This document shows, one piece after another, positions 6,001-9,000 of a stretch of 9,894 bases of DNA. The position numbers are program-made. Within the stretch, counting starts at the first letter, position 1; each line of letters starts with the position of its first letter. Source of the DNA: a virus (taxonomy: Duplodnaviria > Heunggongvirae > Uroviricota > Caudoviricetes); the IMG/VR virus record IMGVR_UViG_2534681831_000019; one strand, 5' to 3'.

Positions 6001-9000
6001 TATGGTGGGCCGTTTTCTTCGTATACGGATGATGGCGCAGCACTTATTCAGGCGATTGTCGCAGAAGGTGATGTGAGCACACCTGTTGTGGTGAAGCCGA
6101 CAGGTGGAGAAGGTGCAGTAATCAGCGCCACCAGCGACCCCGGGTATTACTTTGTTGTGGTTCTGGCAGGGCAGTCAAACGGCATGTCGTATGGTGAAGG
6201 TCTTCCGCTGCCGGAGACATATGACCGTCCGGACCCGCGCATTAAGCAGCTGGCGCGTCGCAGTACGGTGACACCGGGCGGTGTCGCCTGTAAATATAAC
6301 GACATCATTCCGGCGGACCATTGTCTGCATGATGTGCAGGTACATGAGCCGCCTTAACCATCCGAAAGCGGACCTGTCAAAGGGGCAGTACGGAACCGTG
6401 GGGCAGGGGCTGCATATCGCCAAAAAACTGCTGCCGTTTATACCGGCGAATGCGGGCATTCTGCTGGTTCCGTGCTGTCGTGGTGGTTCAGCGTTCACCA
6501 CCGGAGCCGATGGCACATACAGTGACGCGAGTGGTGCCTCGGAGAATTCAACCCGCTGGGGTGTGGACAAGCCGCTGTATAAGGACCTTATCGGTCGAAC
6601 AAAAGCAGCACTGAAGAAGAATCCGAAAAATGTGCTGTTTGCCGTGGTGTGGATGCAGGGGGAATTTGATTTTGGCGGTACGCCGGCAAATCACGCAGCA
6701 CAGTTTGGTGCGCAGGTTGATAAATTCCGTGCAGACCTGGCGGATATGGCAGGTCAGTGCGTCGGTGGCTCTGCTGACGGTGTTCCCTGGATATGCGGGG
6801 ACACGACGTATTTCTGGAAGCAGAAGAACGAATCCTCGTACCAGACGGTGTACGGCAGCTACAAAAACAAAACGGAAAAGAATATCCATTTCGTACCGTT
6901 CATGACGGATGAGAATGGGGTGAATGTGCCGACGAACAAACCGGAAGAAGACCCGGACATTCCGGGTATCGGATATTACGGTTCGAAATGGCGTGACAGC
7001 TCAGCCACCTGGACGTCACAGGACAGGGCGAGCCATTTCAGCGCCTGGGCACGCCGTGGGATTATTTCCGACCGTCTGGCAACGGCGATTTTGCGCCATG
7101 CGGGAAGAGTGGCGCTAAACGCGGGGGCATCATCGACAGTATCAGAGGTGCGCCCGTCATCGCCTTCCGGTGCAGAAGCCACAGGCGTCACAACACTGCT
7201 CTCTTACCTTGCCAGCGAGTCAGAGGGAAGCCTGAAAGTACAGGGATGGTCAGCCAGTGGCGGCAGGGCAGAAGTGGTCAGCGATGCGGAGGGAACCGGA
7301 GGTAAGGCAGTGAAGCTGACCAAGGAGGCCGGTAAAAGCAGCTGGGTGCTGGAGTACGCCGCGGGCAACGGTGCGGCTCTGTTACAGAAAGGGGGGCAGA
7401 TTCGCTGCCGCTTTAAGGTTTCGGGAGCGCTGGCTGCGAACCAGTATGTTATGGCGTTTTACTGGCCGGTATCTTCACTGCCACAGGGCGTTGCCCTGAC
7501 CGGAGACGGAGGGAATAACCTGCTGGCAGCGTTCTACATCCAGACAGATGCAAAAGACCTGAATGTGATGTACCACAATGCGAAAGTGGCGACAAACAAC
7601 CTGAAACTGGGAACCTTTGGCGCATTTGATAACGAATGGCATACGCTGGCTTTCCGCTTTGCCGGGAATAACAGCCTTCAGGTGACGCCGGTTATTGATG
7701 GTCAGGATGGCACACCGTTCACGCTGACGCAGTCACCGGTCAGTGCATTTGCGGCGGATAAACTGCATGTGACAGACATTACCAAAGGTGCGACTTACCC
7801 GGTGCTGATTGACAGCATTGCTGTGGAAGTGAACAGCACAGACACTGCGGCATGATAAAAAAAACCGCCAGCGACAGGAATGGACGCTGGCGGTGGTAAT
7901 ACCTATGGAGGAAAAATAAAGGAACGATACTTTCGTGCTCTGGTTTTTTAAATGAAAACAGTTCTTATTGTCAACAATAACGGAAAGAAATTATGACATT
8001 TCTGAACCAGTTAATGCTGTACTTCTGTACGGTGGTCTGTGTGCTGTATCTCCTTTCGGGTGGGTACAGGGCCATGCGTGACTTCTGGCGCAGACAGATT
8101 GACAAAAAGGGCCGCTGAGAAAATCAGCGCCAGTCAGTCAGCCGGAAGCAAACCCGAAGAGCCGCTCATTTAGCGGCAACTTTCTTAATCACACCTTTCG
8201 ACGAGAAAATCCCATGTCAGAAATTACATCCCTGTCACTGCTGAAGCAGTGAGGGAAGTCCTGCGCTCTGAAGAAGTCCGGAGCGCACTGAAACAGAAAC
8301 TTCGCCATAACCTGGAAGCGCGTCTTGATGCAGAAGTGGATGCCATTCTGGATGAACTGCTGGGCGCACCGGCAGCTCCGGAGCCGGAAGGCATCGCGGG
8401 TGAGGGGAGTGCTTCAGATAGCGGTGACCCCACACCGGACAGCGACATGATGATGTAAGCATGCGTCAGGGACCATCGGTGTGTGCCGGTGGTCTTTTTT
8501 ATTGTTGTGAGCTTCCGGATTGCGGGAGGCGGGGTATGAACCAGATGGAAAAAATCACAACAGGTGTGTCATACACCACGTCAGCGGTGGGAACGGGCTA
8601 CTGGTTCCTGCAGTTGCTGGACAGGGTTTCCCCGTCTCAGTGGGCGGCAATAGGCGTGCTGGGGAGTCTGCTGTTTGGTCTGCTGACGTACCTGACGAAC
8701 CTGTATTTCAAAATCAGAGAGGACAGGCGTAAGGCGGCACGGGGAGAGTAAGCTGATGAGCAGGAAACTCCGCTATGGTTTATCGGCTGCCGTTCTGGCG
8801 CTGATTGCCGCAGGTGCTTCTGCGCCTGAAATCCTCGACCAGTTTCTGGATGAAAAGGAAGGTAACCACACCACGGCATACCGTGATGGTGCGGGTATCT
8901 GGACCATCTGCCGAGGCGCCATCATGGTGGATGGTAAGCCTGTGATTCCTGGCATGAAGCTGTCGAAGGAAAAATGCGACCGGGTTAACGCTATCGAACG

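What the first reader, a model, noticed from the sequence alone, without database searches (positions are those of the whole stretch)
7952..8458. Small ORFs between the esterase and the holin
The roughly 600-bp gap upstream of S holds a 41-aa peptide with one predicted transmembrane segment and a basic tail (7993-8118), and a small protein with a highly acidic C-terminus (8214 or 8249 to 8458). Both fall below or at the edge of typical gene-calling thresholds. Their position immediately upstream of the lysis genes, inside the Q-dependent late transcript, suggests lysis-timing or moron functions.
Basis: seen in the sequence. Interest (0 to 1): 0.4.

Follow-up and report, generated by a model that had tools for sequence, protein, structure and literature searches.

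The report
Two known small phage genes, frameshifted
The two "small ORFs" between the esterase and the holin are broken copies of two conserved, already annotated Stx-phage genes of unknown function (DUF1378, a 59-residue membrane protein, and DUF826, an 81-residue acidic protein), each cut short here by a single-base error that is almost certainly a draft-sequencing artefact.

Summary
Both ORFs exist as described (7993-8118, 41 aa; 8249-8458, 69 aa), but they are fragments. The window is the whole 9,894-bp contig of the E. coli DEC8B (O111:H8) draft genome. Against the nearest complete genome it carries 8 single-base indels, five of them in A-runs. An extra A (8104-8108) truncates DUF1378 (PF07125, normally 59 aa). 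A missing G (8233/8234) separates DUF826 (PF05696, normally 81 aa) from its ATG at 8214. Undoing both restores the reference proteins. The +A allele occurs in 1 of 729 complete E. coli records, where NCBI flags it "frameshifted"; the -G allele occurs in none of 706.

The intact genes are real: dN/dS is about 0.04-0.47, and they are adjacent and intact in essentially all related loci. DUF1378 is predicted to be one transmembrane helix running into a basic cytoplasmic helix. DUF826 is one long helix plus a variable acidic tail.

DUF1378 relatives lie either upstream of the P21-type holin or directly after Rz; some are cargo elsewhere. A conserved terminator (8468-8503) separates DUF826 from S. 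No function has been tested; my best guess, at low confidence, is a late-expressed accessory pair acting on the lysis step. A probable antisense sRNA gene (7857-7945) lies next door.

The parts
7993..8118 (+). DUF1378 gene as it reads in this window: a 41-aa ORF. Residues 1-38 are authentic (transmembrane helix, SGGY motif, basic juxtamembrane stretch). The last residues (KGR) and the stop are out of frame.
   Evidence: ORF list. Pfam PF07125 positions 1-39 of 59, 85.9 bits. Alignment to ArgO145 and the Stx1-converting phage.
8104..8108 (+). A5 run carrying one extra A (relatives have A4). This is the frameshift that truncates DUF1378.
   Evidence: The allele is found in 1 of 729 complete E. 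coli records, where PGAP marks the gene 'frameshifted'.
8109..8173 (+). 3' part of DUF1378 (...RAAEKISASQSAGSKPEEPLI*), now in the +1 frame. It includes the most conserved cytoplasmic motif, AAEKISASQSA.
   Evidence: ORF 8039-8173 translation. Family alignments A2 and A6.
8214..8252 (+). True start of DUF826 (ATG 8214). Seven authentic codons (MSEITSL), then out of frame; stop TGA at 8250-8252.
   Evidence: Sequence, translation, alignment.
8233..8234 (+). Site of the missing G (CCCT^GTC instead of CCCTGGTC). This is the frameshift that splits DUF826.
   Evidence: The allele is found in 0 of 706 complete E. coli records, 1,732 places.
8249..8458 (+). 3' part of DUF826 (residues 13-81 of the intact protein: a long helix plus an acidic disordered tail). 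The 'GTG start' is the internal Val13 codon. It carries a private K14R change at 8253.
   Evidence: Pfam PF05696 positions 14-75 of 75, 108.5 bits. Deposited as EHW09627.1, ECDEC8B_3587. 8253G found in 0 of 781 records. AF2 model.
8468..8503 (+). Intrinsic terminator (13-bp G+C-rich stem, 4-nt loop, U-run) between the DUF826 stop and the holin ribosome-binding site.
   Evidence: Terminator scan. Folding z-scores -3.1 and -3.7. A hairpin at the same place in four diverged alleles with different stem sequences.
7857..7945 (-). Probable small-RNA gene antisense to the late operon. It has a perfect TTGACA on the minus strand (+ coordinates about 7978-7983), a body of about 88 nt, and a terminator hairpin plus U8 abutting the esterase stop codon.
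   Evidence: Weak full-length Rfam Esr41 match: 28.5 bits, far below the family's gathering score of 102, E 0.0033 locally. Same position, strand and terminator type as PasC and the minor 3' end of PasA in E2348/69. -35 box, length and terminator kept in most of the eight diverged alleles.
8536..8751 (+). Holin S, P21 class II (pinholin) family, with dual start MNQM. Context only.
   Evidence: Pfam PF04971, 112.5 bits. RefSeq annotation of L003.
5908..7855 (+). SASA/DUF6645 (NanS-p type) esterase gene, split here into two ORFs (5908-6357 and 6281-7855) by an extra T at 6341. Context only.

Best explanation
The interval holds two conserved, already annotated phage genes, not novel micro-ORFs. 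The first is a DUF1378-family gene (PF07125, PHROG 494), normally 59 aa. The second is a DUF826-family gene (PF05696, PHROG 311), normally 81 aa.

In this window each gene is broken by one single-base indel: +A in the run 8104-8108 and -G at 8233/8234. The window is the complete 9,894-bp contig of the E. coli DEC8B (O111:H8) draft assembly. The indels are most likely homopolymer-type sequencing or assembly errors, not biology.

Shown for the intact proteins:
- DUF1378 is predicted as one continuous helix. Its first ~22 residues are hydrophobic (single-pass, N-out/C-in by the positive-inside rule) and its next ~25 are basic and amphipathic.
- DUF826 has no hydrophobic segment. It is one long helix followed by a variable acidic disordered tail.
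- Both are under purifying selection.
- In Stx-type phages the order is always esterase, DUF1378, DUF826, terminator, S.

Inferred, at low confidence (about 0.3): both are made from the Q-antiterminated late transcript. DUF1378 sits in the inner membrane. The acidic DUF826 docks on its basic cytoplasmic helix. The pair acts as a non-essential accessory of the lysis step, for example tuning pinholin, SAR-endolysin or spanin action.
For: Identity of the genes:
- Pfam hits for the fragments and the repaired proteins; PHROGs; RefSeq annotation of the same genes in ArgO145, the Stx1-converting phage, strain 8B and 95NR1.

The frameshifts:
- Three-way alignment.
- Base-by-base comparison with the 99.8 % identical O111:H8 genomes shows, within 1-9877, 8 single-base indels against 5 substitutions. 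Five of the indels are in A-runs of 4 or more. They also break stxB and the esterase.
- Repairing the two indels restores the reference proteins.
- +A allele in 1 of 729 records, flagged 'frameshifted' there; -G allele in 0 of 706.
- The exact 41-aa and 69-aa products are each on 1 contig, against at least 1,000 contigs for each intact protein. The 69-aa one is ECDEC8B_3587 on a 9,894-b contig.
- 76-77 of 77 evaluable IMG/VR loci have both genes intact and adjacent.

Real genes:
- dN/dS is 0.13-0.18 for DUF1378 and 0.04-0.47 for the DUF826 core, against alleles of 61-88 % identity.
- Synteny is kept in those alleles.

Structure and topology.

Lysis link:
- Of 115 loci, 56 have (holin)-endolysin-Rz-DUF1378, typically with the DUF1378 start overlapping the Rz stop.
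- 32 have esterase-DUF1378-DUF826-S21 holin.
Against: That the indels are errors is inferred, not proven. I could not see the reads. I could not confirm that 'strain 8B' (NZ_CP077473) is the same isolate as DEC8B. The sequencing platform (454) is my recollection only, because the genome paper is not held.

Against a lysis role:
- S21-type cassettes exist without these genes. In E2348/69 prophage PP2 the esterase-holin gap is unrelated sequence.
- About 27 of 115 loci carry DUF1378 (with or without DUF826) next to a tail-fibre-assembly gene or an invertase and methylase, away from lysis genes.
- A structurally conserved terminator separates DUF826 from S.
- No sequence similarity to any characterised holin, antiholin, spanin, defence protein or solved structure.
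- No experiment on either family was found in the literature held.
Confidence: 0.85

Rival explanations
1. The two frameshifts are real mutations. In strain DEC8B this Stx1 prophage is decaying, and DUF1378 and DUF826 (with stxB and the esterase) are genuine pseudogenes.
For: The sequence as deposited carries them. Prophage decay is common. One other complete genome has the same +A allele, and the exact 41-aa product occurs on one other contig.
Against: Eight single-base indels against five substitutions in 9.9 kb is far too indel-rich for natural divergence from a 99.8 % identical genome of the same serotype. Five of the eight sit in A-runs, the classic error site. They would inactivate stxB in a strain described as stx1-positive. 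The -G allele and the 8253 change are seen nowhere else. The other +A genome also has a frameshifted esterase, which suggests the same kind of noise.
Confidence: 0.1
2. The 41-aa and 69-aa ORFs, as read, are themselves the functional products: a short membrane peptide with a KKGR tail and a GTG-initiated acidic protein.
For: Both are open in the window. The 69-aa one was called as a gene in the deposit.
Against: The 41-aa form lacks the family's most conserved cytoplasmic motif, AAEKISASQSA. The 69-aa form lacks the conserved N-terminal 12 residues and starts at an internal Val codon. Each is on one contig only, against at least 1,000 for the intact forms. No slippery site for programmed frameshifting is present (reading of 8098-8112).
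Confidence: 0.03
3. On function: DUF1378/DUF826 are cargo (moron-like) genes with a membrane function unrelated to lysis, for example superinfection exclusion or modulation of a host membrane protein. They simply occupy a recombination-prone slot.
For: The esterase-holin gap is variable: EPEC prophages carry PasA or PasC sRNA genes there instead. The pair also sits after tail-fibre-assembly genes and beside invertase/methylase cargo. A terminator follows DUF826. Small single-pass membrane proteins are typical exclusion factors (my knowledge, e.g. HK97 gp15).
Against: No sigma-70-like promoter was found on the + strand upstream, so expression in the lysogen is not supported. In 56 loci the DUF1378 relative is typically translationally coupled to Rz, which points to late expression with the lysis proteins. 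No PADLOC match.
Confidence: 0.3
4. On function: the pair works with the upstream NanS-p-type esterase, for example in its handling, processing or localisation. The esterase was recently reported to be a capsid-decoration protein of phi24B.
For: The block esterase-(antisense sRNA)-DUF1378-DUF826 is kept in two contexts. One of them lies beside an invertase and away from lysis genes, with an esterase that lacks the DUF1737 domain. DUF826 is found only together with an esterase (about 50 loci) or a tail-fibre-assembly gene (3 loci), never in the Rz-linked context. The esterase is a virion protein (preprint 10.64898/2026.04.10.717836).
Against: DUF1378 relatives occur without any esterase in 63 loci. 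EPEC esterase genes lack the pair. Neither protein is mentioned among the 15 virion proteins of phi24B. A membrane protein has no obvious role in capsid decoration.
Confidence: 0.15

Closest known systems
Pfam PF07125 (DUF1378) / PHROG 494
   Same: Full-length match once the extra A is removed (134 bits, positions 1-59 of 59). Same length, the same LYL-SGGY transmembrane end and the same AAEKISASQSA motif. Same position upstream of DUF826 and S in Stx phages.
   Different: In the window only positions 1-39 are in frame. The family has no assigned function and is very small: 42 clusters at 50 % identity among 1.84 billion representative proteins.
Pfam PF05696 (DUF826) / PHROG 311
   Same: Full-length match once the G is restored (136.6 bits). 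Conserved N-terminal 51 residues and a variable acidic tail, as in all relatives.
   Different: In the window the first 12 codons are out of frame, and the invariant Lys14 reads Arg. No function is assigned. Some pipelines call it 'head completion protein' without visible basis.
Antiholin pairs such as T4 RI (membrane) with RIII (small cytoplasmic helical protein), and the phage Mu 'releasin' for its membrane-tethered endolysin (recalled from the literature, not tested here)
   Same: Works-like analogy only. A small bitopic membrane protein plus a small (about 80 aa) helical cytoplasmic protein, encoded beside a holin/endolysin cassette and made late.
   Different: No sequence similarity was detected to any family of known function. 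No evidence of binding to S21, R21 or Rz. The pair is dispensable for S21-type cassettes that lack it.
PasA/PasC (EcOnc51/52) prophage sRNAs between the sialate esterase and holin genes; Rfam Esr41
   Same: Applies to the neighbouring minus-strand element 7857-7945. It has the same position abutting the esterase stop, the same antisense orientation, and a GCCAGCG...CGCTGGC + U-run terminator. The architecture is Esr41-like.
   Different: The 5' body is not alignable with E2348/69 PasA or PasC. The Esr41 score of 28.5 bits is far below the gathering score of 102. True Esr41 lies on the SpLE1 island.

Membership tests
DUF1378 (PF07125) | Score above Pfam's gathering cut-off (25 bits) | tested here: met
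   85.9 bits for the 41-aa ORF; 134 bits for the repaired 59-aa protein.
DUF1378 (PF07125) | Full-length protein of about 59 aa, with the N-terminal transmembrane helix ending in SGGY and the cytoplasmic AAEKISASQSA motif in one frame | tested here: not met
   In the window only profile positions 1-39 are in frame. The motif is encoded at 8109-8173 in the +1 frame because of the extra A. The feature is met after removing one A.
DUF1378 (PF07125) | Conserved genomic position (esterase-DUF1378-DUF826-S21 holin) | tested here: met
DUF826 (PF05696) | Score above Pfam's gathering cut-off (25 bits) | tested here: met
   108.5 bits for the 69-aa ORF; 136.6 bits for the intact 81-aa protein.
DUF826 (PF05696) | Complete N-terminal domain (MSEI..LVTAEAVK...) continuous with its ATG | tested here: not met
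   ATG 8214 is out of frame with 8249-8458 because of the missing G. Profile positions 1-13 are lost. The feature is met after restoring the G.
Holin / antiholin / lysis regulator | Sequence membership in a characterised holin, antiholin, spanin or releasin family | tested here: not met
   No such Pfam, PHROG or NCBIfam hit. No lipobox, so not an o-spanin. An embedded Rz1 already exists in at least two of the four Rz-linked cassettes scanned.
Holin / antiholin / lysis regulator | Demonstrated effect on lysis timing, or physical interaction with holin, endolysin or spanin | not testable with these tools
   Only guilt by association is available: 88 of 115 loci are adjacent to lysis genes.
Moron (autonomously expressed prophage cargo) | Own promoter upstream and terminator downstream | tested here: inconclusive
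   The terminator is present and conserved. No sigma-70-like + strand promoter was detected between 7700 and 8800.
Moron (autonomously expressed prophage cargo) | Expression from the repressed prophage | not testable with these tools
   No expression data were accessible.
Pas / Esr41-type Hfq-dependent prophage sRNA (neighbouring element 7857-7945, minus strand) | Rfam gathering score, or alignable sequence to PasA/PasC | tested here: not met
   Esr41 scores 28.5 bits against a gathering score of 102. Only the terminator aligns with PasC or PasA.
Pas / Esr41-type Hfq-dependent prophage sRNA (neighbouring element 7857-7945, minus strand) | Promoter, a body of about 80-90 nt, and an intrinsic terminator with U-tract at the same locus and strand | tested here: met
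   TTGACA -35, a length of about 88 nt and a hairpin plus U7-8 are present in most of the eight diverged alleles and in the window. PasC and the minor PasA end occupy the same place.

The most novel reading that the evidence does not exclude
DUF1378 is an unrecognised accessory component of enterobacterial phage lysis cassettes. It would be a single-pass inner-membrane protein, with DUF826 as its cytoplasmic acidic partner in Stx phages, that tunes the timing of pinholin, SAR-endolysin or spanin action and hence the timing of Stx release. The basis is its recurrence on either flank of lysis cassettes: upstream of S, or translationally coupled to Rz.
Probability: 0.25. Interest if true: 0.5.

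Novelty: already known. Interest (0 to 1): 0.18.

Why it matters
For the scan, this is a caution: small ORFs at odd lengths in draft contigs can be frameshift fragments of known genes. Here one 10-kb contig carries eight single-base indels, which also break stxB and the esterase.

Biologically, the two intact genes are near-universal in Stx phages and sit between the toxin/esterase genes and the lysis genes that release the toxin, yet neither has a tested function. The context survey gives a concrete, cheap experiment (deletion plus lysis curves) and maps everything in the esterase-holin gap: an antisense sRNA gene, DUF1378, DUF826 and a terminator.

Tried and rejected
- NCBIfam, PADLOC and PDB sequence searches gave nothing for either protein.
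- No fold search was run. Both models are single helices, so any match would be meaningless.
- A literature search by old locus tags (L0106, L0107, ECs1208...) returned only noise. A loosely specified NanS-p search did the same.
- The DEC genome announcement (Hazen 2012) is not held, so the sequencing platform could not be verified.
- I could not confirm that 'strain 8B' is DEC8B.
- Programmed frameshifting at the A-run: rejected. There is no slippery heptamer, the allele is private, and PGAP calls it a pseudogene elsewhere.
- DUF1378 as an o-spanin: rejected. It has no lipobox, its Cys is not conserved, and Rz1 is already embedded in Rz.
- The long 139-aa 'orf43/ORF B79' annotation spanning both genes: rejected as an upstream extension of the DUF826 frame. 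The MSEI start is conserved in 34-42 % identical relatives.
- E2348/69 PasA as a homologue of the window's gap: rejected. The gaps are unrelated apart from the esterase-proximal terminator.
- RNAalifold on the DUF826-S spacer gave a poor consensus because the alignment was not structure-aware. Single-sequence folds were used instead.
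Full report
WHAT IS IN THE WINDOW. The window is the late-gene region of an Stx1a prophage. In order it holds NinG/NinH/Q, stx1A, stx1B, a strong Rfam STnc100 match (5476-5685), and a SASA/DUF6645 (NanS-p type) esterase ending at 7855. A 680-bp gap follows. Then come a P21-type class II holin S (8536-8751, PF04971), a lysozyme with an N-terminal hydrophobic, SAR-like segment (8756-9289, PF00959), and the start of the next lysis genes. An exact-sequence look-up shows that the 69-aa ORF of the finding is GenBank EHW09627.1, 'hypothetical protein ECDEC8B_3587 [Escherichia coli DEC8B]', on a single contig of 9,894 bases. The window is therefore that whole draft contig. DEC8B is an O111:H8, stx1+ stx2+ human isolate.

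CHECK OF THE OBSERVATION. The 41-aa ORF (7993-8118) and the 69-aa GTG ORF (8249-8458) exist, and their composition is as described: one hydrophobic segment and a basic tail in the first, an acidic protein in the second. The alternative start at 8214 is not in frame with 8249. It reads MSEITSLSLLKQ and stops at 8250-8252.

THE ORFS ARE FRAGMENTS. Megablast of the gap finds 307 phage records at 80-99 % identity. There, the same DNA is annotated as 'DUF1378 family protein' (180 bp, 59 aa) and 'DUF826 domain-containing protein' (246 bp, 81 aa). Alignment with two of them shows two differences in the window. It has AAAAA where they have AAAA (8104-8108), and CCCT-GTC where they have CCCTGGTC (8233/8234).
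- The extra A moves the conserved C-terminal third of DUF1378 (...RAAEKISASQSAGSKPEEPLI) into another frame, where it is visible as the tail of ORF 8039-8173.
- The missing G separates the DUF826 start codon from the rest of the gene.
- Deleting one A and restoring one G gives the reference 59-aa protein exactly, and the 81-aa protein with a single change, K14R.
- Pfam confirms this. The 41-aa ORF matches PF07125 positions 1-39 of 59, and the 69-aa ORF matches PF05696 positions 14-75 of 75. The repaired proteins match end to end.

ERROR OR BIOLOGY? The closest complete genomes are three O111:H8 chromosomes (8B, 95NR1, 95JB1) at 99.8 % identity over the whole window. All three annotate intact stxB, esterase, DUF1378 and DUF826. 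Several lines point to assembly error.
- Indel excess. A base-by-base comparison within 1-9877 finds eight single-base indels against only five substitutions. The indels are at 145, 861, 1359, 1472, 5131, 6341, 8104 and 8233. Five lie in A-runs of four or more. Besides the two small genes, they break the response-regulator gene, stxB (in its ATGAAAAAA start) and the esterase.
- Rarity among 5,426 complete E. coli genomes. The +A allele occurs in one record of 729 that carry the region, and PGAP marks it 'frameshifted' there, next to a frameshifted esterase. The -G allele occurs in none of 706 records (1,732 places). The 8253 G occurs in none of 781.
- Rarity among proteins. The exact 41-aa and 69-aa products are each known from one contig. 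The intact proteins are each known from at least 1,000.
- Rarity in IMG/VR. In 77 evaluable loci both genes are intact and adjacent in 76-77.

This pattern is what homopolymer-prone draft sequencing produces. I recall that the DEC collection drafts were 454-based, but the paper is not held, so that is unverified. Genuine pseudogenisation remains possible; I give it about 0.1.

THE INTACT GENES ARE REAL AND CONSERVED. Alleles down to 61-66 % protein identity keep the order esterase, DUF1378, DUF826, S21-type holin. Nei-Gojobori dN/dS against such alleles is 0.13-0.18 for DUF1378. For the DUF826 N-terminal domain it is 0.04-0.47.

Both families are narrow. An exhaustive HMMER search with a DUF1378 profile finds 42 clusters among 1.84 billion representative proteins. 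The named DUF826 hits are all Escherichia or Shigella.

In DUF1378 the invariant positions are the end of the hydrophobic helix (L-x-L-x-SGGY) and the cytoplasmic AAEKISASQSA stretch. The window's 41-aa form lacks the latter. In DUF826 the first 51 residues are conserved (NLEARLDAEVDAILDELLG is nearly invariant). The remainder is a Pro/Glu/Asp-rich tail of variable length ending in MMM, MML or TML.

PREDICTED PROTEINS. For DUF1378, AlphaFold2 gives one helix, residues 2-50 (mean pLDDT 74). Residues 3-21 are strongly hydrophobic, there is no charge before them, and the net charge is +4 in residues 25-40. That implies N-out/C-in. For DUF826 it gives a short helix (10-17), a long confident helix (20-50, pLDDT above 90) and a disordered tail. 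The protein has pI 4.2, net charge -11 and no hydrophobic segment. Neither matches a family of known function, a defence-system model or a solved structure.

GENOMIC CONTEXTS OF THE FAMILY. I collected 115 loci with DUF1378 relatives and classified their neighbours by BLAST and Pfam. Four arrangements recur. The counts are redundant samples and should be read qualitatively.
- (A) Esterase, DUF1378, DUF826, S21 holin (then lysozyme and Rz): 32 loci. This is the window's arrangement.
- (B) (Holin), endolysin, Rz, DUF1378: 56 loci. This group includes 50-aa relatives and an 80-88-aa 'GGW' subfamily. The start codon typically overlaps the Rz stop (ATGA). The holin is either P21-type or lambda-S-type and the endolysin is either a lysozyme or GH19. 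DUF826 is absent. The same order is seen in the deposited phage vB_SmeS_BUCT709.
- (C) Tail-fibre-assembly gene, (DUF826-like), DUF1378, Dam methylase, in Mu/P2-like prophages: 7 loci.
- (D) (DNA invertase), SASA/DUF6645 esterase lacking DUF1737, DUF1378, DUF826-like, followed by methylase cargo: about 20 loci.

So DUF1378 flanks lysis cassettes in two independent arrangements, but not always. DUF826 accompanies it only where an esterase or a tail-fibre-assembly gene lies upstream.

THE REST OF THE GAP. Immediately after the DUF826 stop there is a strong intrinsic terminator on the + strand: a 13-bp stem at 8468-8497 followed by a U-run (folding z -3.1 to -3.7). Four diverged alleles keep a G+C-rich hairpin with a U-rich tract at the same place, with different stem sequences. 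S is therefore insulated from any transcription that is not antiterminated.

At the other end of the gap, on the minus strand, 7857-7945 looks like a small-RNA gene. It has a perfect TTGACA at about 7978-7983 (+ coordinates), a body of about 88 nt with a CU-rich single-stranded stretch, and a terminator plus U8 abutting the esterase stop codon. It gives a weak full-length Esr41 match of 28.5 bits, far below the family's gathering score of 102. Most of the eight diverged alleles keep the -35 box, the length and a terminator whose stem sequence differs.

This is the position, strand and terminator type of PasC, and of the minor 3' end of PasA, in EPEC E2348/69 (Pearl Mizrahi 2021, Table S6). A 2026 preprint describes an 'esterase-PasA-holin-lysozyme' arrangement with PasD/STnc100 about 2,170 bp to the left. 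In the window the STnc100 match ends 2,172 bp before 7857.

In E2348/69 prophage PP2 the esterase-holin gap is otherwise unrelated sequence and has no DUF1378 or DUF826. The gap is therefore a variable cargo slot, and S21-type cassettes do not require these genes.

WHAT IS KNOWN. The only paper in the held library that names both families merely notes that some Stx2a phage annotations show DUF826 or DUF1378 proteins between nanS-p and S. A 2026 cryo-EM preprint reports that the upstream esterase (phi24B gp84) is a capsid-decoration protein anchored by its DUF1737 domain. It does not mention the two small proteins among the 15 candidate virion proteins.

HOW IT MOST LIKELY WORKS. Shown: two conserved coding genes, one predicted single-pass membrane protein with a basic cytoplasmic helix and one acidic helical cytoplasmic protein, lying in the Q-dependent late region with a terminator before S. 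Inferred: both are made late. DUF826 docks on the cytoplasmic part of DUF1378, given charge complementarity and strict adjacency. The pair modulates the inner-membrane step of lysis. I put this at about 0.3. The rivals are unrelated membrane cargo such as superinfection exclusion (about 0.3) and a role linked to the esterase (about 0.15). None can be decided without experiments.

VERDICT. Novelty: already known. Interest: low.

Noticed in passing
window 7857-7945, minus strand (promoter elements up to about 7983): Probable antisense small-RNA gene between the esterase stop and DUF1378: TTGACA -35, a body of about 88 nt, and a terminator plus U8. It gives a weak full-length Rfam Esr41 match (28.5 bits against a gathering score of 102). 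It is a positional counterpart of the PasC/PasA sRNAs of EPEC. Its architecture is conserved in most of eight diverged alleles.
   Followed up: partly
window 8468-8503, + strand: Strong intrinsic terminator between DUF826 and the holin gene. A hairpin with different stem sequences is kept at the same place in four diverged alleles. It would insulate the lysis genes from non-antiterminated transcription.
   Followed up: partly
window 5476-5685, + strand: Strong Rfam STnc100 match (176.7 bits) between stx1B and the esterase. A 2026 preprint relates STnc100 to PasD. Its end lies 2,172 bp from the minus-strand element at 7857, matching the published pasD2-pasA spacing of about 2,170 bp.
   Followed up: partly
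window 145, 861, 1359, 1472, 5131, 6341: Six further single-base indels relative to the 99.8 % identical O111:H8 genomes. They break the response-regulator gene, stxB (A-run of its ATGAAAAAA start, 5131) and the esterase (extra T at 6341, splitting it into ORFs 5908-6357 and 6281-7855). The whole contig looks error-prone.
   Followed up: yes
window 9878-9894: The last ~17 bases diverge from all close relatives. This is probably a ragged contig end.
   Followed up: no
window 8253: Private A-to-G change that turns the family-invariant Lys14 of DUF826 into Arg. It is absent from 781 E. coli records.
   Followed up: yes
L045-L075 (e.g. L052 4001-4261; L049 4001-4240): An 80-88-aa 'long' DUF1378 subfamily (GGW motif, Ala/Lys/Glu-rich helical tail). 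In most loci it lies directly after Rz in lambdoid lysis cassettes, whether these have P21-type or lambda-S-type holins and lysozyme or GH19 endolysins. It looks like an unannotated fourth gene of these cassettes.
   Followed up: partly
L076, L080, L090, L093 (e.g. L090 1157-4476): The module DNA invertase, SASA/DUF6645 esterase lacking the capsid-binding DUF1737 domain, DUF1378, DUF826-like, located away from lysis genes and next to methyltransferase cargo.
   Followed up: partly
L002 3184-3603; L039 1384-1803: Older records annotate one 139-aa ORF (ORF B79 / orf43) spanning both genes. It is the DUF826 frame, which stays open for more than 50 codons upstream across the DUF1378 3' half, and PHROG 8301 seems to be built from such over-extended calls.
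   Followed up: partly
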